32,000 nucleotides of DNA from Geobacter sulfurreducens PCA (GCF_000007985.2 NC_002939.5:1920001-1952000); one strand, 5' to 3'; shown: positions 2,785-30,540, counted from the first letter of the stretch. The notes: generated from the letters alone by a model not told the origin. A program made the numbers and translations.

Positions 2785-4356
<1,572 letters not shown>

Positions 4357-13123: not shown

Positions 13124-14482
13124 CTAGTTCCGCGTTTTTTTCTCATCCGCGGCCGTAAGATAGTTAGCCGTATAAATGTAATCATCGAGATAGTCGACCT
13201 TGCCGTCGCCGTTCAGATCAAATGGGCGGGCCGGTCCAACCGATTTCCGGGCGAGGAAAAGCAGGAAATCTGCCTCTGTCACGCGTCCCTTGCCGTCCAC
13301 GTTGACGTCTGCCCGCGGTGCGACGGTGAGCGGATACTCCATGATTTTCCGGCCGGTTACGATAATGAGGGTTGCTTCCACGGCACCGGCCTCCGGCAGC
13401 GCTTCCACCAGCCAGCGGTTTCCCTCCCCCTTTTTAAGCGACTTGAGCGCCGCGCCTCTCAGTGCGAAGTTGGGCGCGGTCTTCCCTCCTTCGGCAAGAT
13501 TCACGGTGATGCGAACGGCTGTTTTGCCGTCAGTAAGGCAGATAGCCGGGTCCTGGCTGATGCTATCCGCCACGGGTTTCTTGAACAGTGCCATGAGTGC
13601 CTTGGGGGTTTTGGCCCCCGTGTAGTCGCGGAACCGGGCAGCCACGCCGCCAAGGACGGCATACCCTTCCTGCGTCACAGGTGCGGGTTTCTCTTCCGGC
13701 TCAGAAACCGGCCGCTCGGCTTCCGGGAGCGGAGCGTGCTGTTCTTCGGTCTCGTTCGCGCCGTTCGCTTGCGACTGTGGAGACTCTTCAGCCGACGCGG
13801 TCTGCTCCGCGACAGGCGGCTTCCCTGCTGAAACACTCGCATCGTTATCAACAGCCCCAGACGTTATCATCCCTGGCAATACGACGGTTCCTCGATGGGT
13901 AGCGTCACCCGACGTTGCGCCGGCTGAAGGCGTCTGAGCAGTTCCATCCATTGCGGAAGCACCTGAACCGTCTGCAAGGTTCTCTCCCTGACCCGTATTT
14001 ACGGGAGACTCTGTCGGTTGCGACGTGGAGGGCTCAGTGGATTGGGTTGTCCCGCTATTGAGGGTAACTCTGAGGTTCCCCTTCTGGGAAGTATCCCCAC
14101 TAATAATCTGGTAAACGATAGTTACCCCGGTTGCCCCCTTCCCCCCCTGTGAAAAGCTTATCTTTGCGAGCGGACCTGAACCGGACAATGGCGCAGTGTT
14201 AAGCATGGCAAGACGAATGGTGCCGGCAGTGGCTGCATTGGGGAGAAACATAGCCCAGCGGAATCCGCTGAGCTGCATTGCTTGGGCGTTACTCAACGCT
14301 TGTGGGTCATAGGTCACGGTTATGTCTATTGCATCTACATTGGACAACCCTGTGGCGGAGATCAGCACATCGTTTCCCGATGGATACGCTGAAAGGCTGC
14401 CGCCGGCGCCGAACGCAAACGTATTGACAACAAGGACGAAAAACGCACTGGTAAGAACGCCGAGAATTGCGGGCTTCTTCAT
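13124..14482 (-). CDS. Secreted protein with N-terminal cohesin-like module, low-complexity S/T/P/E linker, central domain and C-terminal dockerin-like module
   Basis: Signal peptide MKKPAILGVLTSAFFVLVVNTFAFG. Cohesin-like VDAIDITVTYDPQAL...GTIRLAML...GSGPLAKISFS (about 14063-14401). Dockerin-like duplicated Ca-loop DVNVDGKGRVTEADFLLFL / DLNGDGKVDYLDDYIYTANYL (13157-13309). GAGGAA RBS. Confidence 0.75.
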   Translation of the reverse strand: MKKPAILGVLTSAFFVLVVNTFAFGAGGSLSAYPSGNDVLISATGLSNVDAIDITVTYDPQALSNAQAMQLSGFRWAMFLPNAATAGTIRLAMLNTAPLSGSGPLAKISFSQGGKGATGVTIVYQIISGDTSQKGNLRVTLNSGTTQSTEPSTSQPTESPVNTGQGENLADGSGASAMDGTAQTPSAGATSGDATHRGTVVLPGMITSGAVDNDASVSAGKPPVAEQTASAEESPQSQANGANETEEQHAPLPEAERPVSEPEEKPAPVTQEGYAVLGGVAARFRDYTGAKTPKALMALFKKPVADSISQDPAICLTDGKTAVRITVNLAEGGKTAPNFALRGAALKSLKKGEGNRWLVEALPEAGAVEATLIIVTGRKIMEYPLTVAPRADVNVDGKGRVTEADFLLFLARKSVGPARPFDLNGDGKVDYLDDYIYTANYLTAADEKKTRN

Positions 14483-14862: not shown

Positions 14863-15510
14863 TCAAGATTGATGAGCCATCCCCGCAACATTCTTCAGGA
14901 GAGTTATAGCCTCGACGGCATCCTGATTCCCTTCAATTTGATATACCTTTTCAAGTGAAGACAGAACGGACGCGTGAAGTTTCTCCAGTTCATTGCGTTC
15001 CGCGGTAATATAGGGATCAAATGGTTCTTCAGGCAAAAAGGGCCCACTGTAAAGATCCTGGGCAGTTTCCAGATACTTTCTTGCCACGGAAATCTCGCCG
15101 CGGGCCAGCATTTTTATCCCTGAAGAGGCATGATATTTAAACTGGCTGGAATCAAGCGAGAAAACGGAGTAATCGAGCCGAATGGCCTCTCCCAAGCTCA
15201 ACACGGGATTCACGGTGCGAGGACCGGAAAATGACTTGCGCAGCCTGCTCAGGGTAGTCTTGAAGTTCTTGGCACCGGAGGAAAGATCACATCCGGGCCA
15301 AATCATTTCAATCAGTTTGTCCCTGTGCAGCCACTGATCATAAGAGATAAGGAGATAACAGAAAAGTATCCTGGCTTTCTGGCTTTCCCAGACAATGCTT
15401 ATGGGAGCGCCGTGGTAAGAAATGGAAAGACCGCCAAACGAGTTGATATGTAAAGCAGGCCCCTCTTCTCCCCTCTCATCTGTCGTCGTTATTTTTCTAT
15501 GTGCAACCAT
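14863..15510 (-). CDS. SARP-family transcriptional regulator (winged-helix DNA-binding plus BTAD domain); recalled as G. sulfurreducens GSU1771
   Basis: 215 aa. LHINSFGGLSISYHGAPI...KARILFCYLL...HRDKLIEMIWP...LSRLRKSF follows the AfsR/DnrI/EmbR winged-helix pattern. The C-terminal A..YLETAQDLYSGPFL segment is BTAD-like. Confidence 0.8.
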   Translation of the reverse strand: MVAHRKITTTDERGEEGPALHINSFGGLSISYHGAPISIVWESQKARILFCYLLISYDQWLHRDKLIEMIWPGCDLSSGAKNFKTTLSRLRKSFSGPRTVNPVLSLGEAIRLDYSVFSLDSSQFKYHASSGIKMLARGEISVARKYLETAQDLYSGPFLPEEPFDPYITAERNELEKLHASVLSSLEKVYQIEGNQDAVEAITLLKNVAGMAHQS

Positions 15511-19848: not shown

Positions 19849-20262
19849 TCACCAGTCCTTGTACGGAGTACCTTTTGAACTGACAAGGTCTGAGCCGCTG
19901 TGCACATCCGCCACATTACCCTTGATCTCCTCGGTAGTATGAATTTCGCCGGTGGGCTCAATAGGCTTTACGGTAACCCATGTGTCATTCTTACCGGTAA
20001 ACGGGTCATTGGGGATTGATTTGACATACCGTTTTTCCGCCAACTCGTCAAGGGTGTCGGGATATTTCCCCTGATCCGCATAGTACTGATCTATGGCACT
20101 GCGCATGGTGTAGAGGTTTTCCTGCAGGACAGCCTCACGAGCCCTGATGAGCCCCCACCTGTAGTTGGGGACGGCAATTGCCGCGAGAATGCCGATGATG
20201 GTCACGACGATCATCAGCTCAATGAGGGTAAACCCCTTGCGGTTACGAAAACGTTTCAGCAT
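19849..20262 (-). CDS. oxpG: GspG-type major pseudopilin (type II secretion / type IV pilin-like); recalled as OxpG of G. sulfurreducens
   Basis: Prepilin leader MLKRFRNRKG followed by FTLIELMIVVTIIGILAAIAVPNY (G-1, F+1, E+5). GspG-like LYTMRSAIDQYYADQGKYPDTLDEL...IPNDPF. Ends in YKDW. Confidence 0.8.
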   Translation of the reverse strand: MLKRFRNRKGFTLIELMIVVTIIGILAAIAVPNYRWGLIRAREAVLQENLYTMRSAIDQYYADQGKYPDTLDELAEKRYVKSIPNDPFTGKNDTWVTVKPIEPTGEIHTTEEIKGNVADVHSGSDLVSSKGTPYKDW

Positions 20263-20268
20263 CCGCTT

Positions 20269-20802
20269 CTACCAGTCCTTGTATTTGCTTCCGTCAATGG
20301 CAATCCCGTCACTCAAGGAATACACGTCGTAGAGGTCTTCACCACCCCAGAGATCGCTCTCGGGATCGTCCACAGAAGAACGCATTCCCCACTTGGGCGG
20401 CTCACCCACTTCGGGAGGATGAAACGGGTCAACGGGAATCCGACGAAGGTACTTTTTCTTGTAGGCATAGAGGCCGCCGAAATCCTCTCCCTCGATCAGT
20501 TTTTCGAATGATTCGGGATAACCGGACCTGTTGGCAACATCCATGATTTTCTTGTCTTTGATCGCCTTGTCGTAATCCTTCTTGTAGTCGTCGATGGCAG
20601 TGCGTATTACCCTCAAATTACGTCTCAGTTCAATCTCTTTGCTCCGTTTGGCCGCCATTTGGGTAAACGGGACAACGGCCATGGCCAGAATCCCGAGGAT
20701 TGCCACGGTAAAAACGAGTTCAATGAGACTCAGCCCCCGGCTGTCACCCCGGAACCGTCTGTCGATGCGCAAGATCAGAGCCGTCACACTACTTGACTTC
20801 AA
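20269..20802 (-). CDS. Second GspG-like pseudopilin (paralog with a longer leader and insertions)
   Basis: ...RGDSRG then LSLIELVFTVAILGILAMAVVPF (G-1, L+1, E+5). LRVIRTAIDDYKKDY...IPVDPF. Ends in YKDW. The start is TTG 20802 (overlapping the secretin stop) or GTG 20787. Confidence 0.75.
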   Translation of the reverse strand: MKSSSVTALILRIDRRFRGDSRGLSLIELVFTVAILGILAMAVVPFTQMAAKRSKEIELRRNLRVIRTAIDDYKKDYDKAIKDKKIMDVANRSGYPESFEKLIEGEDFGGLYAYKKKYLRRIPVDPFHPPEVGEPPKWGMRSSVDDPESDLWGGEDLYDVYSLSDGIAIDGSKYKDW

Positions 20803-23257
20803 CCACCGTGTTGTAAGGAATTATATCCAGAGGCCTGTTCGCTTGGTCAACGAACTTTACATTCTGGAGGCCGAGGCTGGCCGGTCCCTTGTTTTTTGCC
20901 TTGAAGGTGGCACTTAGGAGCGTTCCCGAGCCGTCGACCCCCTCACCGGCAGCACTGCGATCCATCGTGATGACTACTCGCCCAGCCGCTTTGTCCGCCA
21001 GTGCGTTGAAGATCGTCGGCTTGCCATCCCGATTTAGAAAGTTCCCTTCCGCCGCCCCGACATACTCGATGAAAATGGGGTCATAGAGCAGAGTGAACGG
21101 TGCCTTGGCAAGCCCTTTGACGTCAGTCACCTTGACTTCAACCTTGAACTGACCGCCAAGATCAACGCCGGCCGGTGCGGCGATATTGAGGCTTCCGCGC
21201 ATGGCGGGCTGAACAGGTGCCACGCTAGCTTGAACTCCTGCTGCTGATGCGGCAGCCGGTGTCGCAGCCGGTTGCACCACAGCGGCCGGTGCGTCGGCCG
21301 CTGTCGCCGGCTGCCCGGCAGGAGCCGCGCTGCCGGGCTTGGCCGAAGGCACTGCGGGCGCGCCTTTGGCCGGCGCGCCGGCCGGTTGGGCTGCGAAGTC
21401 GGGTTCCAGTTCAAAGGAAGAAAACGGCTTAACGGCTGTCGGGTCATCTTCCTTGCCCGACCAGAAGGCCGCTACATCAGCCTCGGGGACGGATACTGCC
21501 CGGACAATGCGCGGCGTAATGGCAAGCACCAGCTCACTCTTATCATACCTGTCATTGTGGCTGGACAGCAGGCTGCCAATGAGGGGAATATCGCCCAGGA
21601 GCCAGATCTTCTGCTTGCTCTTGCTTTTTGTGTCCTCGATGAGACCGCCGATGATGCTGGTTTCCCCGTCTTTCAAGTTGAGAACCGTATCCACGTTGCG
21701 GGTGCCGATGGTCACGACCGAACTAATGGCATCGCCGCTGCCGACTGTCTTCTCGCCGATAATGGAACTGACCTCGACCCCAAGCTTTATGGTGACCTCG
21801 TTGTTCAACTGAATCACCGGCTCCGCATTGAGTTTGACCCCGACGTCCACGTACTGGACGTTCACGGTAACCCCGCCGACGGAACCGGTACTGGACGTAG
21901 TGGTGATAGGCACCCTCGTGCCCACGGTAAACTTGGACTTTTCCCGGTTTTTGACGCGAATCTTCGGATTCGACAGGACCTCAGCGTTGGACAACTGTTT
22001 GCTGAAATTGTACGTGGCGCTGGGAACGGTCAGGAACCCCTGGTAACCATTCCAGTTGAAGAGATTGAGGAGGTTCTTCACCTGGGTAGTGGTCACCGTG
22101 GTCGTATCGTTCGACGTTGTGGTTACCTTCGGATCAAAGGTATCAGAAAAGAAATCGCCACCCGACCCGGGAGTGCGGGCGTTGAGGGATACGGCATACC
22201 GGCTCAGTCCCAGGCCGAACAACTCTGAATTGTTTTTCGAAACCTGAATAACCTCAACTTCCAGCAACACTTCGGCATCGGGCACATCGTTGGCTTCGAG
22301 AATCTTCCCCGCCACATCGATCAGTTCCGGGTTATCCCTGATGACGAGGGCATTCAGTTCCTCGTTCACGTAGATCTTCTTGACCTGAAGCATCGTCCGC
22401 AAAAGGTTGACGGCCTTCTTGGCATCAAGGCTGTTCAGATAGAACGTCTTCACCATCAGATCTTCATACTGTTTGGCCTTTTCCGGTGTCTTGGGGAAAA
22501 TGAGAATAGTGCTCTCATTGAGGACTTTGCGTCCCAGCTTGTTCATGCTCGTAAGTAGATCGAGAGCTTGATTGAAAGTTGCATTTTCAAGGAAAACGGT
22601 GACGTTTTGTTCCTTAACGCCCTCGTCAAAGATGAAATTAATCCCTGAAAGTTGGGACAGAATATAGAAAACGTCCTTGAGCTTAGCTTCCTTGAACTTA
22701 AGGGTTATCGGCTTGGTCGATTTGAGATTGAGTTCAAAGCCTTCCAGCTTGGTGCGTCTGGTCTGGAGCAGCTTTTCAAGGGCTTCTTTTATTTCCTTGT
22801 TCCCGGGATTGAGATCCAGAGCCTTGCGATAGGCCTGAAGGGCTTCGCGAGGCTTGTTCGATTTTTCAAACTCGAGTCCTTCGCGATAGTAGGTCAGTGA
22901 ATTACGCACCCGGATCAACTCGTCGCTGCGCTGCTTTGCCCGCGCCAGAGCAGGGTTGAGCGAAACTGCCGACTGATATTCCCGCAGAGCTTCGTCTAGC
23001 AGCTGCTGCTCATAGGCCGTATCCCCATTTTTGAGGTGCTCGAACGCGGCTTTTTCGCTCGCCTTGAGGAGTCTCATGCGGTACTCGGTCTGTTGAGGAT
23101 TGGTTGAAGCAGCCTCGGCAAACTTCATGACCGCCTCGTCAAGCTTACCTTCCTCTTCAAGCTTTTCAGCCTTGTTGAACGCGGTCAGGCCGGCAGTGCA
23201 CCCGGCGAGAAAAGTCAGTACTACCGCGGCAATGGCCATGTTCGCTATGGTTCTCAT
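20789..23257 (-). CDS. gspD: Secretin (GspD/PilQ family) fused to an N-terminal lipobox plus TPR module and a C-terminal cohesin-like module
   Basis: 822 aa. GAGGAG RBS. Lipobox LTFLAGC. TPR region about 22733-23200. Secretin core with LLGDIPLIGSLL and ELVLAITPRIV. Ala/Pro-rich linker about 21194-21410. Cohesin-like C-terminus FKVEVKV...FTLLYDPIFIEYV...GSGTLLSATFKAKNKG (20792-21193). Confidence 0.85.
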   Translation of the reverse strand: MRTIANMAIAAVVLTFLAGCTAGLTAFNKAEKLEEEGKLDEAVMKFAEAASTNPQQTEYRMRLLKASEKAAFEHLKNGDTAYEQQLLDEALREYQSAVSLNPALARAKQRSDELIRVRNSLTYYREGLEFEKSNKPREALQAYRKALDLNPGNKEIKEALEKLLQTRRTKLEGFELNLKSTKPITLKFKEAKLKDVFYILSQLSGINFIFDEGVKEQNVTVFLENATFNQALDLLTSMNKLGRKVLNESTILIFPKTPEKAKQYEDLMVKTFYLNSLDAKKAVNLLRTMLQVKKIYVNEELNALVIRDNPELIDVAGKILEANDVPDAEVLLEVEVIQVSKNNSELFGLGLSRYAVSLNARTPGSGGDFFSDTFDPKVTTTSNDTTTVTTTQVKNLLNLFNWNGYQGFLTVPSATYNFSKQLSNAEVLSNPKIRVKNREKSKFTVGTRVPITTTSSTGSVGGVTVNVQYVDVGVKLNAEPVIQLNNEVTIKLGVEVSSIIGEKTVGSGDAISSVVTIGTRNVDTVLNLKDGETSIIGGLIEDTKSKSKQKIWLLGDIPLIGSLLSSHNDRYDKSELVLAITPRIVRAVSVPEADVAAFWSGKEDDPTAVKPFSSFELEPDFAAQPAGAPAKGAPAVPSAKPGSAAPAGQPATAADAPAAVVQPAATPAAASAAGVQASVAPVQPAMRGSLNIAAPAGVDLGGQFKVEVKVTDVKGLAKAPFTLLYDPIFIEYVGAAEGNFLNRDGKPTIFNALADKAAGRVVITMDRSAAGEGVDGSGTLLSATFKAKNKGPASLGLQNVKFVDQANRPLDIIPYNTVVEVK

Positions 23258-23285: not shown

Positions 23286-23906
23286 TCAGCGGATCTGCCC
23301 GCTCAGCGGGCGATTTTCAACAAGCGGGATGACGATCTCACTGCCGTCGGTGGTCGAACGAATCGACAAGGCTTCATCCGTTATGTTGACAGCCTCGTAA
23401 ATCCCGGCGATCTTGTCGCCCTGGCGTACGAGAATAATCTCTTTGTCCTTGGCCAGAAAAATAGTTTTCCGGTTCTCCTTTTTGAGAAAACCCAGGAAGG
23501 TAAAACGGGCCATGTCACGAACTACCGGTGGCGGCTGGGGAGGCACCACGGACGGAGGCGGTGACGGCAGAACCGGCCGGGGCGGCAATGGCGGCGGTAT
23601 GGGCCTCGGCAGAACTGGCGGTGCGGGAGGCACTTTAGTTTCGTCGTGGAAAATGGGTCGGAAGATATTTCTTCGGAAACCGGCAAAACGCCCCTTGCTA
23701 CACTCTAGGAGATCAAGCCTCACGCGCGTCTCATCGGTCACAGGCTTGGCGGGAGCCGCTTTCCTGTCGCGGGATGGAGCCTTGGTACTGGTCGTCGAAG
23801 GCAATGAGGTAACGGTTTGCTGGCGGGGCGACCTGACGTAGCTGTAAATCAGGGACAGACCCAGTACGACCAGGAGAATTGCCAGTATGAGCCGTTGACG
23901 GTTCAT
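23286..23906 (-). CDS. Bitopic inner-membrane protein with poly-proline spacer and PilP/GspC-HR-like C-terminal domain
   Basis: N-terminal TM helix (LILAILLVVLGLSLIY). PPAPPVLPRPIPPPLPPRPVLPSPPPSVVPPQPPP spacer. C-terminal FTFLGFLKKENRKTIFLAKDKEIILVRQGDKI resembles the PilP/GspC secretin-contacting beta domain. ATG 23906 has GGAGGAG upstream and overlaps the preceding stop by 1 nt. Confidence 0.6.
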   Translation of the reverse strand: MNRQRLILAILLVVLGLSLIYSYVRSPRQQTVTSLPSTTSTKAPSRDRKAAPAKPVTDETRVRLDLLECSKGRFAGFRRNIFRPIFHDETKVPPAPPVLPRPIPPPLPPRPVLPSPPPSVVPPQPPPVVRDMARFTFLGFLKKENRKTIFLAKDKEIILVRQGDKIAGIYEAVNITDEALSIRSTTDGSEIVIPLVENRPLSGQIR

Positions 23907-24451
23907 CACTCCTCCGTCCGGAGGTAGGCAGTAAGCTGAACTTTCAGTGCAACCGCCTCCTCCACGGCACTGCCGCTGTTGAGGGAAAGAGATTCAACCA
24001 CAAGCATTGACCTGTGACACTGGAGATCAGAGAGGAAGCTCTTGATACCGGCGTAGGTACCTCCAAGAGAGAGGACCACATCATATACCACGAGTTTTTG
24101 ATCCGGCACCTGCTTCGGCTTGTATGTGACGCCCTTGACCGTGAGCCCGTTGTCAGCAGCGGTTTCAAAAACTTCCATCATGAGGGCGGTGAACCCCCGT
24201 TTGGGGGTAAGGCGCTCGCGGTACACCTTCAGATCTTCTGTCCCTTGCCGGTAGATGGAGGATACATCACGCCTGGCACCCGTATTGAGCGACCTCTTGG
24301 ATGTCCACTCATCCCTCAGCTCGGCAATGCGCGGCTCTTGATACACGCCTTTGAACACCGCCAGGATGATATTCACCGTTGCCAAGGCAAGAAGGACGAC
24401 CACAGTCCGCTTCCTGGACGTAATAAGTTGTATGAGTTGCTGCTTCGTCAT
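23906..24451 (-). CDS. PilO/GspM-like bitopic assembly protein
   Basis: 181 aa. Short cytoplasmic N-terminus, one TM helix (VVVLLALATVNIILAVF), then a coiled segment and ferredoxin-like C-terminal domain. Position between the PilN-like and PilP-like genes. ATGA overlap with the upstream gene. Confidence 0.55.
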   Translation of the reverse strand: MTKQQLIQLITSRKRTVVVLLALATVNIILAVFKGVYQEPRIAELRDEWTSKRSLNTGARRDVSSIYRQGTEDLKVYRERLTPKRGFTALMMEVFETAADNGLTVKGVTYKPKQVPDQKLVVYDVVLSLGGTYAGIKSFLSDLQCHRSMLVVESLSLNSGSAVEEAVALKVQLTAYLRTEE

Positions 24452-24987
24452 GTAAAGTCGACCTTGCAGGTGACGGTAAAGGAAATACCCTTCTGCTTTT
24501 CTCCGACACTGAGCTGTCCCTGATTCAACAGGAGAACATCGGTAAAGTGGGTTGATGACTCCAGGTTCTCCATCAGCGACCTGAGTGCGCCGAACGAGCG
24601 GGCAGCACCGGAAAGTTTAAGGGTTCCGTCCTTCAGGCTGGGATCTATGGCCCCGAGTGCAACCCCCTCGGGCACTACTTCTTCAAGGCGGTTCAGAAGA
24701 AGCAACCAGTCAAAGGCCTTTTTGCCGATTACGGCGTTGACTTCGGCAATCTTCTTGAGCAGATCCCGATACTGCTTTTCGGTAATTCCTTTGGCAGACT
24801 CATCAAAACGGGCCTGCAAAATCCCCATGTCCTTCTTGAGCGCCCGCTCCGTGGAAACATTCGCCACAAGCGATGCGATGTTGTACGCCAGTAGAAGAAG
24901 AAGCCCCAGGATCACTGCGGCAATCGCCGTGTTCACCTTCCTTGTGTTATAGAAATAGCGGGTGGCAAGGTTTATCCGGATATCCAT
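24448..24987 (-). CDS. PilN-like bitopic assembly protein
   Basis: N-terminus MDIRINLATRYFY (compare the PilN INLLP motif), followed by a TM helix (AIAAVILGLLLLLAYNI). About 180 aa. Immediately downstream of the PilM-like gene. Confidence 0.6.
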   Translation of the reverse strand: MDIRINLATRYFYNTRKVNTAIAAVILGLLLLLAYNIASLVANVSTERALKKDMGILQARFDESAKGITEKQYRDLLKKIAEVNAVIGKKAFDWLLLLNRLEEVVPEGVALGAIDPSLKDGTLKLSGAARSFGALRSLMENLESSTHFTDVLLLNQGQLSVGEKQKGISFTVTCKVDFT

Positions 24988-25910
24988 CAAAGATTCCTCG
25001 TGGCCGCGCCAATGGCTGCCGCCAAGTCATGGAGTAACGCTGGGTCGGTCGCTGTCCCGTTATTGCCCATGACCGCCTGCGGATTGAACATGACCGGGTC
25101 AATGCCGCTCGCCTCCGCAACGATGCCGGCGAAGGACTCCCCCCCATCCGGAGGCGCCAGACAGAACACGCTCTTGACCTCGCGGCCGGGGTTTTTGTCA
25201 CGGTAGACAAGGAGTGAACTATTGATCTCCATGAAAATCCGGTTCGGATCAACGACTTCTCTGCCCATCTCTTTGACGCGATAGAAATCGATGAGTCCGT
25301 CGGTTAGAGCGAGCATACTCAGCACGCCCCCGTGGAAGGCCACAAAGAGCGAGGTATCCTCAGACGGAATACGTTTGGCCGCCACGCGATAGAGGTTAAA
25401 TGTGTTGAAATCGATCCGGTTCGGCTGAATTCCCGCCTCTAGGAGCAAGTCCTCGTACTGGGTCACGACCTGTCGCGCCACAACGGCAATCAGCACCGAA
25501 AGGCTCCCATTATCACGCTCACGCAGAGTCTGGTAGTCCAGATGCATGTCCCCTGCATCAAATGGCAAGCTCTTCTTGAGCTTCCAGCGGATCATGTCGC
25601 GCCCCTCTTCCCTGTTTTTGAAGCGCGTATCAAAATCCATGATCATTACACGGCCAACTGCGTCGGGTAGCGTAACCGATACGAGGTCCGTCCGAACGAG
25701 CAGCTTGCAATACTCCTCGCGCACCGTGCCGACAAAGGCCTTGGGATCTACGACATTGGGCTCGCGGTGGAGAATCCGCACTATCCCCGGTGCAAAGGAG
25801 GCACCACCGTGCGTCACGAGACGCGGCGCACCCTTGCCGCCACCCAGCACGACAAAGCGGACCCCGTGCTGCGACACTTCCATACCTATGGCGTTCTGGG
25901 CGAAAAGCAT
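24987..25910 (-). CDS. PilM-like actin-fold cytoplasmic assembly protein (GspL cytoplasmic-domain equivalent)
   Basis: About 307 aa with no TM helix. N-terminus AIGMEVSQHGVRFVVL resembles the PilM iGlDiG..s.k.v.l pattern. Gene order is M-N-O-P-secretin. ATG 25910 has GGAG 5 nt upstream. GTG 25916 is the alternative. Confidence 0.6.
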   Translation of the reverse strand: MLFAQNAIGMEVSQHGVRFVVLGGGKGAPRLVTHGGASFAPGIVRILHREPNVVDPKAFVGTVREEYCKLLVRTDLVSVTLPDAVGRVMIMDFDTRFKNREEGRDMIRWKLKKSLPFDAGDMHLDYQTLRERDNGSLSVLIAVVARQVVTQYEDLLLEAGIQPNRIDFNTFNLYRVAAKRIPSEDTSLFVAFHGGVLSMLALTDGLIDFYRVKEMGREVVDPNRIFMEINSSLLVYRDKNPGREVKSVFCLAPPDGGESFAGIVAEASGIDPVMFNPQAVMGNNGTATDPALLHDLAAAIGAATRNL

Positions 25911-25912
25911 GC

Positions 25913-27637
25913 TCACTCCACGAAGGTGACCCGGTTGATTTCACGCAAGGTCGTTTCCCCTGCAAAGACCTTTTCAATGGCAGATTCGCGCAGGAATACC
26001 GTGCCGGACTCACGGGCGGCCGCCTTGAGCTGGGCTGCAGGAGCCTTCGCCATGATCAGCTCCCGCATCTGGTCATTCAGATCAAGAAGTTCAATGATGG
26101 CTGATCGTCCGCGATATCCCGTCCCATTGCACTCCTCGCAGCCACGACTCTCATAGAACGTTACGTCGCGACACTCCTCCGGGTCAAGTCCCGATTCGAT
26201 AAGGACCGAATCCGAATGCTCCACCGGATATTTGCAGTGCGGACACGCCTTGCGTACCAGACGCTGGGCCATGACACAGTTGAGACACGAAACGAAGTTG
26301 TAGGGATCGATCCCCATGTGAATGAAGCGGCCAAGAACGTCAAAAGCGTTGTTCGCGTGAACCGTCGTAAAGACCAAGTGCCCGGTGAGGGCCGATTGGA
26401 CGGCGATTTGTGCCGTTTCAGGGTCCCGGATCTCGCCGACCATGATCTTGTCCGGGTCGTGCCGAAGAATCGACCGGAGACCGCGGGCAAAGGTGAGGCC
26501 CTTTTTCTCGTTCACCGGTATCTGGACGATACCGCGCAACACGTATTCGACCGGGTCTTCAATGGTAATGATCTTCTCTTCGCCCGTATGAATCTCGGTG
26601 AGAGCGGCGTAGAGGGTAGTCGTCTTGCCCGAACCGGTCGGCCCCGTTACGAGGACCATGCCGTAAGGCTCGCGAATTTTCCTTCTCAGACGCTTCATTT
26701 CCCGCGGATGCATGCCGAGCGTCTCAAGCGTAAGCCCCTTCAGGTCGGAAGCGATGCTCTCCTTGTCAAGGATACGGATAACCGCGTCCTCTCCAAAGGC
26801 GCTCGGCATGATCGATACGCGAAAATCAATGGCCTTGTCATTGAGCCTGACCTTGAAGCGACCGTCCTGAGGGATGCGTCGCTCGGAAATGTCGAGCTCA
26901 CTCATGACCTTGAGGCGAGAAATGATAGGAGCCTGAAAGTGAATATCGAGGGGTTCGGTGGCCCGGTATAGCACCCCGTCGATCCGGTATTTGATGATAA
27001 CCCCTTCCAGGGCGGTTTCGATGTGAATATCGCTTGCCCGACGGGTCAGCGCGTCCATGACGGTTGAGTTGACGAGCTTGATGATGGGGCTCGTGTCGGC
27101 CGAGATCTTCTCCATGGAGAGTATCTCTTCGCCTTTTTCATTCTCCTTGACCAGTTGCAGCATGAAGTCCTCGGAAACTTCCTTGAGGACCCTACTGGTG
27201 GCCTCCCCTTTCTTGAGGATAGTGGCAATGGCCGTTTCCGTCGCCAGTTTGACGATAAAAGGCCGGTCCAGCAGAAGCTCCAACTCGTCCAGCTTCAGAA
27301 CATCTGTCGGATCGGCAATAAGAACGACCAGGGTCCCGTCTTCCTCTTCCAACGGGACGAACTGGTAGCGATAGATCGCATCCGGTGGCAGTGTAGCCAG
27401 GAGCGACTCATTGAGCCGCACGCCGCGGGCATCAACATAGTCGAGGCCGAACTGCTCGGCAAGAGCCCGTGCCAGGTTCTCCTCGGTAATGAGTCCGTCC
27501 CCAACGCAGACCTCCCCGAAACGCTTTGTGGACGCATTTCTCTTCTCGACCAGATAGGGGATCTGATCAGGATTGAGGCTTCCCTGTTGAACAAGGATCT
27601 GGCCGATGGTTTTTCGTTTGAAAGATTGCTTTTCCAT
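25913..27637 (-). CDS. gspE: Type II secretion / type IV pilus assembly ATPase (GspE/PilB family) with an MshEN-type N-terminal domain
   Basis: Walker A GPTGSGKTTTLYA, Asp box, Walker B, His box, and tetracysteine CPHC...CEEC. N-terminus has two 24-residue MshEN-like motifs. Start is ATG 27637 (MEKQSFKRK...) or TTG 27682, which lies directly after the gspF stop. Confidence 0.9.
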   Translation of the reverse strand: MEKQSFKRKTIGQILVQQGSLNPDQIPYLVEKRNASTKRFGEVCVGDGLITEENLARALAEQFGLDYVDARGVRLNESLLATLPPDAIYRYQFVPLEEEDGTLVVLIADPTDVLKLDELELLLDRPFIVKLATETAIATILKKGEATSRVLKEVSEDFMLQLVKENEKGEEILSMEKISADTSPIIKLVNSTVMDALTRRASDIHIETALEGVIIKYRIDGVLYRATEPLDIHFQAPIISRLKVMSELDISERRIPQDGRFKVRLNDKAIDFRVSIMPSAFGEDAVIRILDKESIASDLKGLTLETLGMHPREMKRLRRKIREPYGMVLVTGPTGSGKTTTLYAALTEIHTGEEKIITIEDPVEYVLRGIVQIPVNEKKGLTFARGLRSILRHDPDKIMVGEIRDPETAQIAVQSALTGHLVFTTVHANNAFDVLGRFIHMGIDPYNFVSCLNCVMAQRLVRKACPHCKYPVEHSDSVLIESGLDPEECRDVTFYESRGCEECNGTGYRGRSAIIELLDLNDQMRELIMAKAPAAQLKAAARESGTVFLRESAIEKVFAGETTLREINRVTFVE

Positions 27638-27682
27638 TGCTTCGTTCCAAGCCGGGCCGTTGAATGGGCTGCGCCGCGACAA

Positions 27683-28891
27683 TCATCCTACAGTGCCGGC
27701 AATTTTGAACACCGGCAGGTACATGGTTACGATAATAACGCCAACAACCAGCCCCATGACGATCATGATCGCGGGTTCAATGGCAGTTGTCAGCAGGTGG
27801 AGGCGGGCATCGATTTCCCCCTCGAAGTATTCGGCAATATCACTCAGCATCTCCTCAAGGGAACCGGTCGACTCCCCCACGCCGAGCATCCGGAGCGCGA
27901 GAGGCGGCATGATCCTCGCCGACTCGATGGCACCCGACAGACTCATTCCCTCCTCGATCTTGACCACGGCTTCGAGCATCCGTCTTTCGAGCACGCGATT
28001 ATTCAATGTGCCCACCGACATCTTGAGCGATTCGACAATAGGTATGCCGCTACCGATGACTGTTGCCAATGTCCGTGTAAACGAGCTGACGGCGAATTTG
28101 GAAAAGACATCACCGATAAAGGGTATTCGTATCTTTATATCATCAACCCGATACCGCCCGCTCTCGGTAGCGGCCCATCGCCTGAAAAAGAATACAGCAC
28201 CGATAACTGCCGCTATAATCAGGGGGAAAAGCTGCTTCAATGATGTGGAAAACGCTATGAGTATCCTGGTGGGAAGTGGAAGCTGGGAACCGGCATCCGC
28301 ATAAACCTGGCTGAAGGTCGGAACCACGTAGACCAGGAGAAAAGTGATGGCCAACGTTGCAACGGTAACAAGGATTGCGGGATAGACCAGCGCGGAAATG
28401 AATCGTTTCCGTACTTCTTCCACCCGTTTGAGAAACGCGATGTAGCGCCGGATGGTGAGCTGCAGGTCCCCGGTCCGCTCGCCAGCTCGCACCGAAGCTA
28501 CGTAGAGATGGGGAAAGACCTTGGTGTGCTTTTCCAGGGCATCGGAGAGAGCCATCCCACCCTTTACGTCCTCGCGAACAACCGCCAGCACGTCAAATAG
28601 AGTTCCCCGCTCAACCCGCTCCAGTACCGTGTCAAGCGCCTGGATAATCGGCAAGCCGGCCTTGATCAGAACGAGAAGCTCCTGGTTGAGGGTAAGGAGG
28701 GCCTTGTTGTCTACCTTGCGTCGCCCTCCCCCTTTGTCCCAGAGAAACTGCAGGGGCTTTTTTTTTATCTCGAAAACAAAAAAACCCTGCTCTTCCAAAC
28801 TGGTGCGAAGCATTTCAGGGTTTGCTGCTTCCAGTTCCCTGGTGATGATTCGCCCCTCCGAGGAGCCGAGCTTACAGTGGTATAGGGCCAT
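27683..28891 (-). CDS. gspF: Type II secretion / type IV pilus platform protein (GspF/PilC family)
   Basis: 402 aa. Duplicated T2SF domain architecture with three TM helices. Typical segments L.TLL.AGLPI..AL (here LVLIKAGLPIIQAL) and the C-terminal EPAIMIVMGLVVGVIIVTMYLPVFKI. Confidence 0.9.
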   Translation of the reverse strand: MALYHCKLGSSEGRIITRELEAANPEMLRTSLEEQGFFVFEIKKKPLQFLWDKGGGRRKVDNKALLTLNQELLVLIKAGLPIIQALDTVLERVERGTLFDVLAVVREDVKGGMALSDALEKHTKVFPHLYVASVRAGERTGDLQLTIRRYIAFLKRVEEVRKRFISALVYPAILVTVATLAITFLLVYVVPTFSQVYADAGSQLPLPTRILIAFSTSLKQLFPLIIAAVIGAVFFFRRWAATESGRYRVDDIKIRIPFIGDVFSKFAVSSFTRTLATVIGSGIPIVESLKMSVGTLNNRVLERRMLEAVVKIEEGMSLSGAIESARIMPPLALRMLGVGESTGSLEEMLSDIAEYFEGEIDARLHLLTTAIEPAIMIVMGLVVGVIIVTMYLPVFKIAGTVG

Positions 28892-28993: not shown

Positions 28994-29437
28994 CTATCGG
29001 TCGTGGCAGGAAAAGCAGAGATCCTCCACAGGGATGCGAAGATGGTACGCTTTCTGGTGAGGGTTTTCCGCGGCAACCACATGCATGTCGTGACATGTGA
29101 TGGCACAGGCAATCAATCCGTCTCCATCGAGCGGCAGCCCCTTGCGGTTCATTTCCGGCTTTTTGCCGACACCATGTCCGAAATCAATGCCGTGACACTG
29201 AAGACATACCCCGTTAGCATCTGATTTTAGCTGACTTTTCCCATCACCAGACAAGCGGTCGGATCTCAGATCCCGTTCCGTGGCAATGTGACATGAAAGA
29301 CACGCCCCCTGTGCATCGTGCGGCGATACACGTTCAGCCGCCGAAACGGACTGCGCGTTTAGTGTTGCCCACAGCGACACAGCCACAAACGCATTGAAAA
29401 ATACTAGTTTCCGGCTGCCCGGCGCGTACAGGCTCAT
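28994..29437 (-). CDS. Small multihaem c-type cytochrome (3 CXXCH plus 1 CX3CH)
   Basis: Signal peptide (..VAVSLWATLNAQSVSAAE). CLSCH, CLQCH, CFSCH, plus CAITCH encoded at 29090-29107. Confidence 0.85.
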   Translation of the reverse strand: MSLYAPGSRKLVFFNAFVAVSLWATLNAQSVSAAERVSPHDAQGACLSCHIATERDLRSDRLSGDGKSQLKSDANGVCLQCHGIDFGHGVGKKPEMNRKGLPLDGDGLIACAITCHDMHVVAAENPHQKAYHLRIPVEDLCFSCHDR

Positions 29438-29440
29438 GGC

Positions 29441-30532
29441 TCAGTATACCCTCGGATTATGGTCCACACCGTGGCAGGAAAGATAGCACTCCCCCCTGAA
29501 CGTGGATATCCCCTTTTCGACAAACTTGAGCTGGCCCTGCGAATTAGGAGAAACCACCGACCTGTTAAACCGGATCAGGTATTTGTACTCGACGCTGCCG
29601 TGGGAATTGTGGCAGGTATAGCAGGAGGTGCCGTTCGAGCCGGCAATTCCGCCAGTACCCTGAATATGCTTTGCATGAAATTTGAAGCTTTCATTGCCGA
29701 GGATACTGCTGCGATCGTGGCACCGGTAACAGAGGGCATATACATGAGGGCTTTCCGGTTGGTTGTCGCGTGTCGAGTAGTTCTCGACGAGGATGTGCTC
29801 GTTAAGTGAGCCGTGAGGTCCCCGGGGCCCGGAAGAAGACTCGCTGCCGTGGCAGTCGCCACAGGAAATAATTGAGACGTCACCCGGAGTTACCTTCCTT
29901 TCCTTATATGGATGGATGAGACTGACAACCGCCGTGTTTTTCCCCTCAGCTTCCACCGGATGAAACGACGGGTTGGTGGAAGCAAGCTCGGCCCTCTTAT
30001 TATTAAAACGGCCGGGAAGATTAGCACTTTCAGCGTGGCATCTGTAGCAAAGTTCGAACTCCGCCGTGACGGTCGAGATCAGATTGCCCACCCTGCGCCC
30101 TTTGATTCCTGCAAATTTATTGGCGGGAGAAACATGATGAGGGTTGTGGCAATCCACGCAGACGGCGTGGCGAGGCATTCGCGGGTCCGCCTCCGGCAGG
30201 GTCTCCCCACCCCGGTGGACCCCACGGACATCAAACGTTGGGTGCCGGAAAGGCTTGCGGAATTCATCCTCAATGTTCTTCATATCGGATTCACGGGGAG
30301 CGAAACCTCTGGGCATGCCGGCATATTGACGGGTCAGCCGGGAAGGATCACCATGACAGACAATGCAGGTCTCGGGTCCACCTCCGTCTTTGAAATTGAA
30401 CTTGAGGTGGCAGGTTGAACACCCTCGGGGCACTTTACTTCGATCGAGATGGACTCCCCCCGTGTAATCGGCAGCAAAGGCCGGCATGACCGAGAGCAGC
30501 ACCAAGCAAATGAGAACTGCGGCTACCGGCAT
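29441..30532 (-). CDS. Multihaem c-type cytochrome (7 CXXCH plus 1 CX3CH)
   Basis: CSTCH, CIVCH, CVDCH, CYRCH, CGDCH, CYRCH, CYTCH, plus CYLSCH encoded at 29471-29488. Start set at ATG 30532 (AGGAG 5 nt upstream), giving the signal peptide MPVAAVLICLVLLSVMPAFA. The ORF-track start at 30571 would overlap the upstream gene by 31 nt. Confidence 0.85.
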   Translation of the reverse strand: MPVAAVLICLVLLSVMPAFAADYTGGVHLDRSKVPRGCSTCHLKFNFKDGGGPETCIVCHGDPSRLTRQYAGMPRGFAPRESDMKNIEDEFRKPFRHPTFDVRGVHRGGETLPEADPRMPRHAVCVDCHNPHHVSPANKFAGIKGRRVGNLISTVTAEFELCYRCHAESANLPGRFNNKRAELASTNPSFHPVEAEGKNTAVVSLIHPYKERKVTPGDVSIISCGDCHGSESSSGPRGPHGSLNEHILVENYSTRDNQPESPHVYALCYRCHDRSSILGNESFKFHAKHIQGTGGIAGSNGTSCYTCHNSHGSVEYKYLIRFNRSVVSPNSQGQLKFVEKGISTFRGECYLSCHGVDHNPRVY

Positions 30533-30540
30533 TGCATCTC

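What the first reader, a model, noticed from the sequence alone, without database searches (positions are those of the whole stretch)
20789..23257. Triple-fusion secretin: lipobox plus TPR pilotin-like module, secretin core, Ala/Pro linker and C-terminal cohesin
**Seen in sequence.** The 822-aa secretin has four parts:

- A lipoprotein signal (LTFLAGC).
- About 155 residues of TPR repeats (22733-23200).
- The N-domains and secretin core.
- A ~70-residue Ala/Pro-rich linker and a 134-residue cohesin-like module (20792-21193).

**From established knowledge.** In type IVa pilus systems a separate TPR lipoprotein (PilF/PilW/Tgl) acts as pilotin for PilQ. Self-piloting lipidated secretins (HxcQ type) also exist.

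**Inference.**

- Here the pilotin-like module appears fused in cis.
- The C-terminal cohesin replaces the usual S-domain or pilotin-binding tail. It provides a protein-docking socket on a flexible tether at the outer-membrane portal.
- The dockerin-bearing protein at 13124..14482 is a candidate ligand.
- Whether the cohesin faces the periplasm or the cell surface cannot be decided from sequence.

I am not aware of a functional description of such a secretin-cohesin docking platform.
Basis: partly seen in the sequence, partly recalled or inferred. Interest (0 to 1): 0.75.

Follow-up and report, generated by a model that had tools for sequence, protein, structure and literature searches.

The report
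Geobacter PulQ secretin with tethered cohesin
This gene is pulQ (GSU1778), the outer-membrane pore of a known Geobacter sulfurreducens protein-secretion system; it really does carry a lipid-anchored TPR module at one end and a tethered cohesin (a protein-docking domain) at the other. Both additions are conserved across its whole bacterial order, but nobody has reported what they do.

Summary
ORF 20789..23257 (-) encodes an 822-aa protein with these parts:
- a conserved lipobox (LAGC);
- about 4 TPR repeats;
- an N0 domain, one Secretin_N domain and a secretin core;
- a variable Pro/Ala spacer;
- a C-terminal cohesin (Pfam 36.9 bits; AF2 pLDDT 96; top 50 PDB fold matches are all cohesins).

By exact sequence match it is G. 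sulfurreducens PCA GSU1778, which UniProt names "secretin lipoprotein PulQ". It belongs to the atypical Pul type II secretion operon (pulF-E-M-N-O-P-Q-G-oxpG). The literature links this operon to OmpB secretion and to repression by GSU1771.

The architecture is therefore already annotated in public databases. All 76 evaluable species loci of Geobacterales/Desulfuromonadales have it. I found no paper that discusses the cohesin.

The core is PilQ-like, a type that has no S-domain. The cohesin is therefore an addition, not a replacement.

The proposed ligand, GSU1770, is a conserved exported protein with a cohesin-like N-terminus and a divergent dockerin-like tail. Its tail has F-hand topology but only borderline scores. 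It is syntenic in only 30 of 59 loci.

Most likely function: a self-piloting secretin ringed by periplasmic cohesins that capture dockerin-tagged proteins. This function is inferred, not shown.

The parts
20789..23257 (-). pulQ (GSU1778): 822-aa secretin lipoprotein of the Pul type II secretion system
   Evidence: ORF. Exact match to AAR35155.1, 'Type II secretion system secretin lipoprotein PulQ'. GSU1778 = pulQ in the supplement of PMC10599522.
23198..23257 (-). Lipoprotein signal peptide, aa 1-20 (MRTIANMAIAAVVLTFLAGC); lipobox LAGC at 23198-23209
   Evidence: Read from the sequence. G19 and C20 are invariant in A4, and the Cys is conserved in the homologues. Lipidation itself was not tested.
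22733..23197 (-). TPR module, aa 21-175, about 4 repeats; begins about 6 residues after the lipidated Cys
   Evidence: Pfam TPR_2, TPR_1, TPR_11 and TPR_14 above cut-off. Only generic TPR hits in PDB. Median 48% identity across species.
22490..22702 (-). N0 (STN) domain, aa 186-256
   Evidence: Pfam STN 32.5 bits, with weaker FecR_C and GspD N0 hits. Aligns with the N0 of PilQ structures 6W6M and 4AV2.
22274..22453 (-). Single Secretin_N (N1/N3-type) domain, aa 269-328
   Evidence: Pfam Secretin_N 34.7 bits. PilQ-like two-N-domain layout.
21500..22000 (-). Secretin core (Pfam domain), aa 420-586
   Evidence: Pfam Secretin E 2e-39. Best PDB sequence matches are the PilQ structures 6W6M (1.7e-26) and 4AV2.
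21338..21499 (-). Conserved post-secretin segment, aa 587-640 (…VPEADVAAFWSGKEDDPTAVKPFSSFELEP…), at the position where an S-domain would lie; ligand unknown
   Evidence: W599 nearly invariant and S600, G601, E603, D604, F615 invariant in A4. PDB secretin alignments end just before it.
21203..21337 (-). Pro/Ala-rich spacer, aa 641-685 (low-complexity character begins at about aa 625)
   Evidence: Length 11-138 aa (median 56), 27% Pro and 26% Ala, not conserved in sequence.
20792..21202 (-). C-terminal cohesin module, aa 686-822
   Evidence: Pfam Cohesin 36.9 bits. Profile against PDB hits cohesins only at the top. AF2 pLDDT 96.1. Top 50 Foldseek hits are all cohesins. Present in 120 of 120 homologues and 76 of 76 evaluable loci.
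23286..28891 (-). Upstream operon genes: pulF (27683-28891), pulE with MshEN domain (25913-27682), pilM-like (24987-25916), pilN-like (24448-24990), pilO/GspM_b-like (23906-24451), Pro-rich pulP (23286-23909)
   Evidence: Pfam. Overlapping or near-abutting genes. pulP = GSU1779 and pulF = GSU1784.
19849..20802 (-). Pseudopilins pulG (GSU1777; ORF 20269-20802, annotated start shorter) and oxpG (GSU1776; 19849-20262)
   Evidence: Pfam N_methyl. Exact or cluster matches named PulG and OxpG.
13124..14482 (-). GSU1770, the candidate ligand: signal peptide, cohesin-like module (aa ~26-150; nt 14033-14407), low-complexity linker, conserved middle domain, dockerin-like tail (aa 389-445; nt 13148-13318)
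   Evidence: Exact match to AAR35147.1. Cohesin 21.2 bits, below cut-off. hhalign against the PulQ cohesin profile E 5e-5. Tail: Dockerin_1 23.2-23.8 bits against a cut-off of 22.9, AF2 loop-helix x2, Foldseek not significant.
14863..15510 (-). GSU1771, a SARP/BTAD regulator that represses the pul operon
   Evidence: Pfam BTAD. Exact match to AAR35148.1. EMSA on the pulF promoter, and pulGPQF up-regulated in the mutant (PMC10599522).

Best explanation
The gene is pulQ (GSU1778), the outer-membrane secretin of the Geobacteraceae 'Pul' type II secretion system. This is a hybrid machine: it has a GspE/GspF motor, two pseudopilins (PulG, OxpG) and a type-IV-pilus-like PilM/N/O/P platform, with a PilQ-like secretin core.

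Shown:
- the identity of the gene;
- its four-part architecture;
- the cohesin fold;
- conservation of the whole architecture across the order.

Inferred:
1. The N-terminal lipobox plus TPR module makes the secretin self-piloting. The Lol pathway carries the lipid-anchored protein to the outer membrane, and the TPR chaperones or stabilises the secretin protomer in cis, as the separate lipoproteins PilF/PilW/Tgl do in trans.
2. After the secretin core, a conserved ~50-residue segment and a variable Pro/Ala spacer hold a cohesin on the periplasmic side. The assembled multimer would therefore carry a ring of tethered cohesins.
3. These cohesins bind dockerin-type Ca-loop modules on exported proteins. 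Candidates are GSU1770-family proteins, which carry a dockerin-like tail plus their own cohesin-like module, and/or dockerin-tagged exoproteins. Binding would concentrate these proteins at the secretion portal, as accessory factors or as cargo.
For: Identity:
- The secretin and its neighbours match PulQ, PulG, OxpG, GSU1770 and GSU1771 by exact sequence or cluster.
- The supplement of PMC10599522 gives the same locus tags and gene names.
- The Pul system is required for OmpB secretion (PMC3543383, citing Mehta 2006).
- The nine pul genes overlap or nearly abut, which fits one operon.

Architecture: Pfam, lipobox conservation and spacer statistics.

PilQ-type core and PilMNOP-like platform. NCBIfam PilQ and GspD scores are far below their cut-offs, so this is a distinct subfamily.

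Cis-pilotin precedent: T4aP pilotins are lipidated TPR proteins that act on PilQ monomers (PMC10653833).

Cohesin: sequence profile, AF2 and Foldseek.

Selection on the module: it is present in 120 of 120 homologues and 76 of 76 evaluable species loci, from Geobacter to Desulfuromonas, even though it evolves fast (median 44% identity, against 70% for the core).

This cohesin subfamily pairs with true dockerins elsewhere:
- Lipoprotein-cohesin P0202 lies directly downstream of a FN3/Ig/Dockerin_1 protein.
- A FN3 + Dockerin_1 protein lies 8 kb downstream of a pulQ orthologue in L080.
- 78 of the top 150 relatives are multi-cohesin, scaffoldin-like proteins.

Candidate ligand: GSU1770 is the only ORF in the window with paired Ca loops. 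Its family tail has loop-helix-loop-helix topology with no entering helices. 14 of 33 family tails hit Dockerin_1. It is syntenic in three genera and in 30 of 59 loci.
Against: - No binding, lipidation or topology data exist.
- The TPR shows no specific similarity to PilF/PilW/Tgl. It sits where PilQ has AMIN domains and joins N0 through a short conserved connector. This is geometrically awkward if the lipid is in the outer membrane.
- The dockerin assignment for GSU1770 is weak. The profile against PDB gives nothing significant. Foldseek E-values are above 5. hhalign to a canonical dockerin gives probability 10%. Loop 1 is degenerate in some orthologues.
- GSU1770 is absent from the 10-kb neighbourhood in 29 of 59 loci.
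- Cohesin-dockerin distance matrices correlate no better than a TPR-dockerin control.
- The periplasmic location of the cohesin is inferred from other secretin structures, not tested here.
Confidence: 0.45

Rival explanations
1. The cohesin is a structural or assembly module with no dockerin partner. This tethered beta-sandwich would bind another part of the machine and act as a built-in clamp replacing a pilotin/S-domain pair. Candidate partners are the fused TPR of the same or a neighbouring protomer, the conserved post-secretin segment, PulP, or peptidoglycan.
For: - The N-terminal lipid/TPR and the C-terminal tail are both expected near the outer wall of the secretin barrel (established secretin structures).
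- TPR and cohesin are the two fast-evolving modules, and their divergence is the most tightly correlated (partial r 0.76).
- A stand-alone TPR + cohesin protein without a secretin exists (P0219).
- The proposed dockerin partner is weak and not always syntenic.
Against: - Every characterised cohesin, including non-cellulosomal ones (2XDH, 2OZN), binds a dockerin.
- Close relatives of this cohesin are encoded next to true dockerin proteins.
- A spacer of 11-138 residues with variable length fits a reach-out tether better than a fixed intramolecular clamp.
- The mirror-tree correlations are dominated by shared phylogeny and rate, so they are not specific evidence.
Confidence: 0.25
2. The platform is on the cell surface. 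The C-terminal spacer would cross the outer membrane or exit through the channel, so that the cohesins decorate the extracellular rim and hold secreted dockerin proteins at the portal. Such proteins could be OmpB-type oxidases or matrix and electron-transfer components.
For: - Cellulosomal anchoring cohesins work on the cell surface.
- Cohesin/dockerin proteins in other electron-transferring syntrophs are interpreted as extracellular adhesins (PMC10553843).
- By my recollection of Mehta 2006, which I could not open, OmpB is loosely surface-associated.
Against: - No known secretin exposes its C-terminus outside the cell. S-domains and pilotins lie on the periplasmic face (PMC3542185, and established structures).
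- Nothing in the tail resembles a membrane-crossing segment.
Confidence: 0.08
3. The TPR module is not a pilotin. It would be a replacement for the AMIN domains of PilQ: a periplasmic or membrane-proximal adaptor that positions the machine or binds another partner. The lipid anchor alone (HxcQ-style), or even an inner-membrane anchor, would handle targeting. This rival concerns only the N-terminal part and is compatible with either reading of the cohesin.
For: - The TPR occupies exactly the pre-N0 position that AMIN domains hold in PilQ.
- A short conserved connector leads from it to N0.
- Only about 4 generic TPRs are present.
- The Tgl model scores 16 bits against a cut-off of 225.
- HxcQ shows that a lipid anchor alone can pilot a secretin (Viarre 2009, cited).
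Against: - T4aP pilotin sequences are known to be poorly conserved (PMC10653833), so lack of specific similarity is weak evidence.
- Lipobox and TPR are strictly co-conserved with the secretin in every locus.
Confidence: 0.2

Closest known systems
Type IVa pilus secretin PilQ with its lipidated TPR pilotin (PilF in P. aeruginosa, PilW in Neisseria, Tgl in M. xanthus)
   Same: The N0-N1-secretin core aligns best, and over its full length, with PilQ structures (6W6M, 4AV2). It has no S-domain. PilM/N/O/P-like partners are encoded upstream. A lipidated TPR element is associated with the secretin.
   Different: - The TPR lipoprotein is fused in cis to the N-terminus instead of being a separate gene.
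- It has about 4 repeats rather than 6, with no specific sequence similarity.
- There are no AMIN domains.
- A C-terminal cohesin is added.
- The system works with pseudopilins as a T2SS (OmpB secretion) rather than making a pilus.
- The TIGR02515 score is 154, against a cut-off of 284.
[quoted passage not shown]
   Same: The secretin is itself a lipoprotein, so no separate pilotin is needed for Lol-dependent targeting. It also belongs to a second, 'atypical' T2SS.
   Different: It is GspD-type, not PilQ-type.
S-domain/pilotin pairs of classical T2SS secretins (PulD-PulS, GspD-AspS)
   Same: [quoted passage not shown]
   Different: An S-domain is about 60 natively disordered residues that fold on the pilotin and serve secretin targeting. 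PulQ instead has a conserved ~50-aa segment, then a long variable spacer and an autonomously folded 137-aa cohesin. The cohesin's expected ligand class is a dockerin, not a pilotin.
Non-cellulosomal cohesin-dockerin pairs (A. fulgidus AF2375/2376, PDB 2XDH; C. perfringens NagJ-NagH, PDB 2OZN) and cell-anchored cellulosomal cohesins (e.g. OlpA/OlpC)
   Same: The fold is the same: TM 0.85 to 2XDH and 0.79 to OlpC cohesin 4DH2. A single cohesin is attached to a cell-envelope anchor as a socket for dockerin-bearing proteins. GSU1770 carries both a cohesin-like and a dockerin-like module; the A. fulgidus proteins do too, by my recollection.
   Different: The anchor here is a secretin of a diderm bacterium rather than an SLH domain, sortase site or soluble enzyme. 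The organism is not cellulolytic. The putative dockerin is divergent and unverified.

Membership tests
Secretin superfamily (PF00263) | C-terminal secretin domain preceded by N0 and Secretin_N domains | tested here: met
   Secretin E 2e-39, STN 32.5 bits and Secretin_N 34.7 bits, all above cut-off. Aligns to 21 solved secretins.
T2SS secretin GspD (TIGR02517 equivalog) | Whole-protein score above the curated cut-off; N0-N1-N2-N3 layout; C-terminal S-domain | tested here: not met
   164.7 bits against a cut-off of 351. GspD structures align only from the last N-domain onward, and no S-domain aligns.
T4P secretin PilQ (TIGR02515 subfamily) | Whole-protein score above the curated cut-off; AMIN domains N-terminal to N0 | tested here: not met
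   154 bits against a cut-off of 284. The best PDB matches are PilQ over N0 to the secretin domain, but a TPR replaces the AMIN region. It works like a PilQ core but is not a member of the curated subfamily.
Geobacteraceae Pul type II secretion system | Secretin encoded in an operon with GspE, GspF and pseudopilins; genetic link to protein secretion | tested here: met
   Operon content. Exact identity to PulQ, PulG and OxpG. The literature links the system to OmpB secretion. No pulQ mutant phenotype was found.
Bacterial lipoprotein / liposecretin | Signal peptide ending in a lipobox [LVI][ASTVI][GAS]C | tested here: met
   LAGC at aa 17-20, with G19 and C20 invariant. UniProt names the protein 'secretin lipoprotein'.
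Bacterial lipoprotein / liposecretin | Actual acylation, and which membrane holds the anchor | not testable with these tools
   Needs palmitate labelling or globomycin treatment, plus membrane fractionation.
T4aP TPR pilotins (PilF/PilW/Tgl) | Lipoprotein with six TPR motifs; family model NF033762 (Tgl) | tested here: not met
   About 4 TPRs. Tgl model 16.1 bits against a cut-off of 225. PDB hits are generic or designed TPRs only. Pilotin sequences are known to be poorly conserved, so functional analogy stays open.
T4aP TPR pilotins (PilF/PilW/Tgl) | Required for secretin outer-membrane localisation and multimerisation | not testable with these tools
   Needs TPR-deletion and C20A alleles.
Cohesin (PF00963) | Sequence match above the curated cut-off | tested here: met
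   36.9 bits against a cut-off of 24.1. The family profile hits cellulosomal cohesins in PDB at E 1.8e-5 to 1e-3.
Cohesin (PF00963) | Nine-stranded beta-sandwich (jelly-roll) cohesin fold | tested here: met
   AF2 pLDDT 96.1, all-beta. Top 50 Foldseek PDB hits are all cohesins with TM 0.73-0.85.
Cohesin (PF00963) | Ca2+-dependent binding of a dockerin | not testable with these tools
   No multimer prediction or binding assay was available. Indirect support only: close relatives are encoded next to Dockerin_1 proteins.
Dockerin (PF00404), applied to the GSU1770 tail | Duplicated ~22-residue segment, each a Ca-binding loop followed by a helix (F-hand), scoring above the Pfam cut-off | tested here: inconclusive
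   - Isolated tail: 23.2-23.8 bits against a cut-off of 22.9, and below cut-off in a longer context.
- 14 of 33 family tails hit Dockerin_1, and 13 of 33 hit EF-hand.
- AF2 (pLDDT 84.6) gives loop-helix-loop-helix without entering helices.
- Foldseek: 3 of 4 hits are dockerins, but E > 5.
- Profile against PDB is not significant.
- hhalign to a canonical dockerin gives probability 10%.

The most novel reading that the evidence does not exclude
A type II secretion secretin uses a ring of tethered periplasmic cohesins as a modular receptor. Dockerin-type tags on exported proteins would be the address label that brings cargo or adaptor proteins to the portal. Candidates are the GSU1770 family, which could daisy-chain through its own cohesin, and dockerin-bearing exoenzymes. 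This would be the first sequence-readable targeting signal for a T2SS, and the first cohesin-dockerin system shown to work inside a diderm cell envelope, in a genetically tractable electroactive bacterium.
Probability: 0.2. Interest if true: 0.8.

Novelty: new variant of a known kind. Interest (0 to 1): 0.55.

Why it matters
How T2SS substrates and accessory proteins are recognised at the secretin is a long-standing open problem, and no linear secretion signal is known.

PulQ carries a domain whose only known biochemical function is high-affinity docking of a small, recognisable partner module. That makes the question directly testable in G. sulfurreducens, a model organism with genetics, secretome assays and clear phenotypes (OmpB secretion, Fe(III)/Mn(IV) oxide reduction, electrode biofilms).

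The cis-fused lipidated TPR also offers a natural single-chain version of the pilotin-secretin pair for structural work.

If the cohesin has no dockerin ligand, the result still matters: it would be the first cohesin recruited for a structural role in an envelope machine.

The practical caveat is that the gene and its domain composition are already in public annotation. What is new is the functional question, not the existence of the protein.

Tried and rejected
1. The cohesin-only query in the word-index homologue search found only 3 fragments. This spent one search; the exhaustive representative search replaced it.
2. The mirror-tree test of cohesin against GSU1770 dockerin gave partial r 0.41. 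That is not above the TPR-dockerin control (0.49) and is well below cohesin-TPR (0.76). It reflects phylogeny and rate, not specific co-evolution.
3. The profile of the GSU1770 tail against PDB sequences, and hhalign to a canonical dockerin, gave nothing significant.
4. Foldseek on the 64-residue tail model gave only 4 hits, all with E > 5.
5. The GSU1770 middle domain has no relatives among PDB sequences.
6. Literature searches for secretin + cohesin + Geobacter, for PulQ, and for GSU1778/1770/1776/1777 found no functional description of the cohesin.
7. Mehta 2006, Viarre 2009 and Peer 2009 (the survey of non-cellulosomal cohesins) could not be opened. Peer 2009 may already list this protein.
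8. I rejected the idea of a vestigial or chance domain accretion, because the architecture is present in 76 of 76 evaluable loci.
9. I rejected reading the tail as a canonical EF-hand pair, because neither loop is preceded by an entering helix and prolines precede loop 1.
10. I did not attempt a chimeric single-chain cohesin-linker-dockerin AF2 run.

Full report
**1. Observation**

The ORF at 20789..23257 (-) is real and encodes 822 aa. Pfam gives the following hits, all above their gathering cut-offs:
- TPR_2/TPR_1/TPR_11/TPR_14 in roughly aa 24-160
- STN/N0 at aa 206-256
- one Secretin_N at aa 269-328
- Secretin at aa 420-586 (E 2e-39)
- Cohesin at aa 691-794 (36.9 bits against a cut-off of 24.1)

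The N-terminus, MRTIANMAIAAVVLTFLAGC, ends in a canonical lipobox. G19 and C20 are invariant in an alignment of 19 diverse orthologues, and the Cys is present in essentially all 120 homologues.

**2. Cohesin and tether**

All 120 full-length homologues keep the module at the extreme C-terminus, at 36-96% identity. Three further lines support the cohesin call:
- A 40-sequence profile hits only cohesins at the top of the PDB sequence list (3L8Q 1.8e-5, 1AOH 8e-5).
- AF2 gives a confident all-beta model with pLDDT 96.1.
- The top 50 Foldseek PDB matches are all cohesins with TM 0.73-0.85, led by the non-cellulosomal Archaeoglobus cohesin 2XDH.

The spacer between the secretin tail and the cohesin is 11-138 aa long (median 56). 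It is 27% Pro and 26% Ala and is not conserved in sequence. "Cohesin on a flexible tether" is therefore correct.

**3. Identity**

Exact-sequence look-up shows that the window is Geobacter sulfurreducens PCA:

| Window gene | Accession | Name |
|---|---|---|
| secretin | AAR35155.1 | "Type II secretion system secretin lipoprotein PulQ" (UniProt); "tetratricopeptide repeat protein" (NCBI) |
| downstream pseudopilins | – | PulG and OxpG |
| 452-aa protein | AAR35147.1 (GSU1770) | "Cohesin domain-containing protein" (UniProt) |
| 215-aa BTAD protein | AAR35148.1 (GSU1771) | – |

The supplement of PMC10599522 confirms the locus tags GSU1778 = pulQ, GSU1779 = pulP, GSU1777 = pulG and GSU1784 = pulF.

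PMC3543383 describes this as the Geobacteraceae Pul system, required for secretion of the multicopper oxidase OmpB (citing Mehta 2006). It also notes the system's characteristic proximity to cell-division genes. That matches the ftsE-ftsX-envC-ctpA genes downstream here.

The nine pul genes overlap or nearly abut, so they form one operon.

PMC10599522 further shows that GSU1771, encoded 5 kb downstream in this window, binds the pulF promoter. It also shows that pulGPQF are up-regulated in its mutant.

**4. What kind of secretin**

The best PDB sequence matches are type IV pilus PilQ secretins: V. cholerae 6W6M (1.7e-26) and Neisseria 4AV2. They align from N0 through the secretin domain. GspD structures align only from the last N-domain onward, and all alignments stop at "ITPRIV", about aa 590.

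The upstream platform genes are PilM/PilN/PilO-like, plus the Pro-rich PulP.

Curated NCBIfam models for GspD and PilQ score far below their cut-offs.

PulQ is thus a distinct, PilQ-like secretin working in a T2SS. PilQ-type secretins have no S-domain, so the cohesin is an addition and not a replacement. A conserved segment, aa ~590-640 (VPExDVAxFWSGxEDxP…SSFxxEP), lies where an S-domain would be. Its ligand is unknown.

**5. TPR module**

The TPR begins about 6 residues after the lipidated Cys. It spans about 4 repeats and joins N0 through a short conserved connector.

It resembles only generic or designed TPRs in PDB. It scores 16 bits on the Tgl model, whose cut-off is 225.

T4aP pilotins are lipidated six-TPR proteins with poorly conserved sequences. 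They are modelled to hold the unfolded beta-lip of monomeric PilQ (PMC10653833).

A cis pilotin is therefore a reasonable inference, but it rests on analogy. The module also sits exactly where PilQ carries AMIN domains, so an adaptor or positioning role is a live alternative. Which membrane holds the lipid cannot be decided here.

**6. Distribution**

A scan of GTDB species genomes found 225 relatives. The best 80 are all from Geobacterales/Desulfuromonadales: Geobacter, Geotalea, Geomonas, Geomobilimonas, Geomesophilobacter, Pelotalea and Desulfuromonadaceae. One locus is labelled Dongiaceae; I suspect a binning artefact.

All 76 loci that are not cut by contig ends carry TPR + secretin + cohesin. 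The fusion also occurs in Desulfuromonas sp. KJ2020, where NCBI labels it "cohesin domain-containing protein".

The accessory modules evolve faster than the core. Median identity to the window is 44% for the cohesin and 48% for the TPR, against 67% for the N-domains and 70% for the secretin.

**7. Relatives of the cohesin**

An exhaustive HMMER search found 2,717 representatives at E <= 1e-3. The top 150 divide as follows:
- 78 multi-cohesin, scaffoldin-like proteins
- 15 recognisable secretin fusions
- 57 single-cohesin proteins, many of which are fragments of secretin C-termini

One small lipoprotein-cohesin, P0202, is encoded immediately downstream of a FN3/He_PIG/Dockerin_1 protein (28.8 bits) and of another cohesin-like protein.

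A stand-alone TPR + cohesin protein also exists (P0219).

In L080, a FN3x2 + Dockerin_1 protein (29.1 bits) lies 8 kb downstream of the pulQ orthologue.

This cohesin subfamily therefore does travel with genuine dockerins in diderm, lipoprotein-anchored settings.

**8. Candidate ligand GSU1770**

GSU1770 has these parts:
- a Sec-type signal peptide;
- an N-terminal cohesin-like module (Pfam 21.2 bits, below cut-off; hhalign against the PulQ cohesin profile E 5e-5);
- a low-complexity linker;
- a conserved middle domain with no relatives among PDB sequences;
- a tail with two Ca-type loops, each followed by a helix.

Across 48 homologues, loop 2 (DLNGDGKRDYLDDYIFTANYL) is nearly invariant. Loop 1 is often DLDKSGKVTEADF but is degenerate in some orthologues.

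The evidence on the tail is mixed:
- Pfam Dockerin_1 is borderline at 23.2-23.8 bits against a cut-off of 22.9. 14 of 33 family tails hit Dockerin_1 and 13 of 33 hit EF-hand.
- AF2 (pLDDT 84.6) gives loop-helix-linker-loop-helix with no entering helices. That is the dockerin F-hand layout, not an EF-hand.
- In Foldseek, 3 of only 4 hits are dockerins from cohesin-dockerin complexes, but all have E > 5.
- The profile against PDB and hhalign to a canonical dockerin are not significant.

GSU1770 is the only ORF in the window with such motifs. It is syntenic in Geotalea and Geomonas. However, it lies within 10 kb downstream in only 30 of 59 loci with enough flank. A mirror-tree test shows no specific cohesin-dockerin signal.

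Verdict on the ligand: plausible but unproven.

**9. Mechanism**

*Shown.* PulQ is the secretin of a known, regulated secretion operon. It is a lipobox-bearing, TPR-fused, PilQ-like secretin with a genuine cohesin on a variable spacer. The whole architecture is under selection across an order.

*Inferred.* The protein pilots itself through its lipid anchor and cis TPR. The cohesins sit on the periplasmic side, because secretin C-termini, S-domains and pilotins lie on that face in all solved systems (established knowledge; PMC3542185). They form a ring of tethered sockets that capture dockerin-type modules on exported proteins.

*Rivals.*
- A purely structural or assembly role for the cohesin (0.25).
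- Surface exposure of the cohesin (0.08).
- A non-pilotin role for the TPR (0.2; this is compatible with either reading of the cohesin).

**10. Novelty**

The protein, its name and its domains are already in public annotation, and the operon has been studied genetically and transcriptionally.

I found no paper that discusses the cohesin or the cis TPR. I could not open Peer et al. 2009, a survey of non-cellulosomal cohesins that may list the protein.

I rate it a new variant of a known kind, with moderate-to-good interest. It gives a concrete, testable handle on partner or substrate recruitment at a secretin in a tractable organism.

Noticed in passing
window 14863-15510 (-): GSU1771, a SARP/BTAD transcriptional regulator, is encoded 5 kb downstream of pulQ. 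Published EMSA and RNA-seq data (PMC10599522) show that it binds the pulF promoter and represses pulGPQF. The secretin operon and its repressor therefore share this window. GSU1770 is the next gene downstream of GSU1771.
   Followed up: partly
window 25913-27682 (-), N-terminal ~100 aa of PulE: The ATPase PulE has an MshEN domain. It carries a tandem motif, TIGQILVQQGSLNPDQIPYLVEK followed by RFGEVCVGDGLITEENLARALAEQ. As I recall it, this closely resembles the c-di-GMP-binding MshEN signature, which would suggest c-di-GMP control of this secretion system.
   Followed up: no
window 28994-31967 (-): Three multihaem c-type cytochromes (147, 376 and 279 aa; MtrC/MtrF-like and paired-CXXCH hits) and an NHL-repeat beta-propeller protein lie directly upstream of pulF on the same strand. 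This block is syntenic in Geotalea uraniireducens (L002) but absent in Geomonas sp. RF6 (L003).
   Followed up: partly
L084 1-3196 (Logan SRR27730044): Three genes lie in a row: a FN3 + He_PIG + canonical Dockerin_1 protein, a 187-aa cohesin-like protein, and a 260-aa lipoprotein-cohesin (P0202). P0202's cohesin is among the closest non-secretin relatives of the PulQ cohesin. This looks like a compact cohesin-dockerin system anchored by a lipoprotein in an unidentified diderm bacterium.
   Followed up: partly
L086 999-2048 (protein P0219): A 349-aa protein combines TPR repeats with a C-terminal cohesin (57 bits) but has no secretin domain. It looks like the two accessory modules of PulQ without the pore. 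The contig is too short to show the gene context.
   Followed up: partly
L080 20962-22752 (Desulfuromonadales MAG): A 596-aa protein with two FN3 domains, a weak reprolysin-like metallopeptidase hit and a canonical C-terminal Dockerin_1 (29.1 bits) lies about 8 kb downstream of the pulQ orthologue on the same strand. This locus has no GSU1770-like gene.
   Followed up: partly
window 21338-21499 (-), PulQ aa 587-640: A conserved post-secretin segment (FWSGxEDxP…SSFxxEP, with several invariant residues) lies between the secretin core and the Pro/Ala spacer, at the position of an S-domain. Its binding partner is unknown; the fused TPR is one candidate.
   Followed up: no
window 20269-20802 (-): The mechanical ORF for pulG starts at a TTG that overlaps the pulQ stop by 14 nt and gives 177 aa. 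Database versions of PulG are 167 or 172 aa, so the true start is probably further downstream.
   Followed up: no
window 4425-5714 (-) and 2821-4356 (+): Two further envelope-type proteins are unrelated to the finding: a TPR + Peptidase_MA_2 protein (429 aa) and a 511-aa multi-domain c-type cytochrome. The rest of the left half of the window is housekeeping (purM, purN, dxs, ispA, xseA).
   Followed up: no
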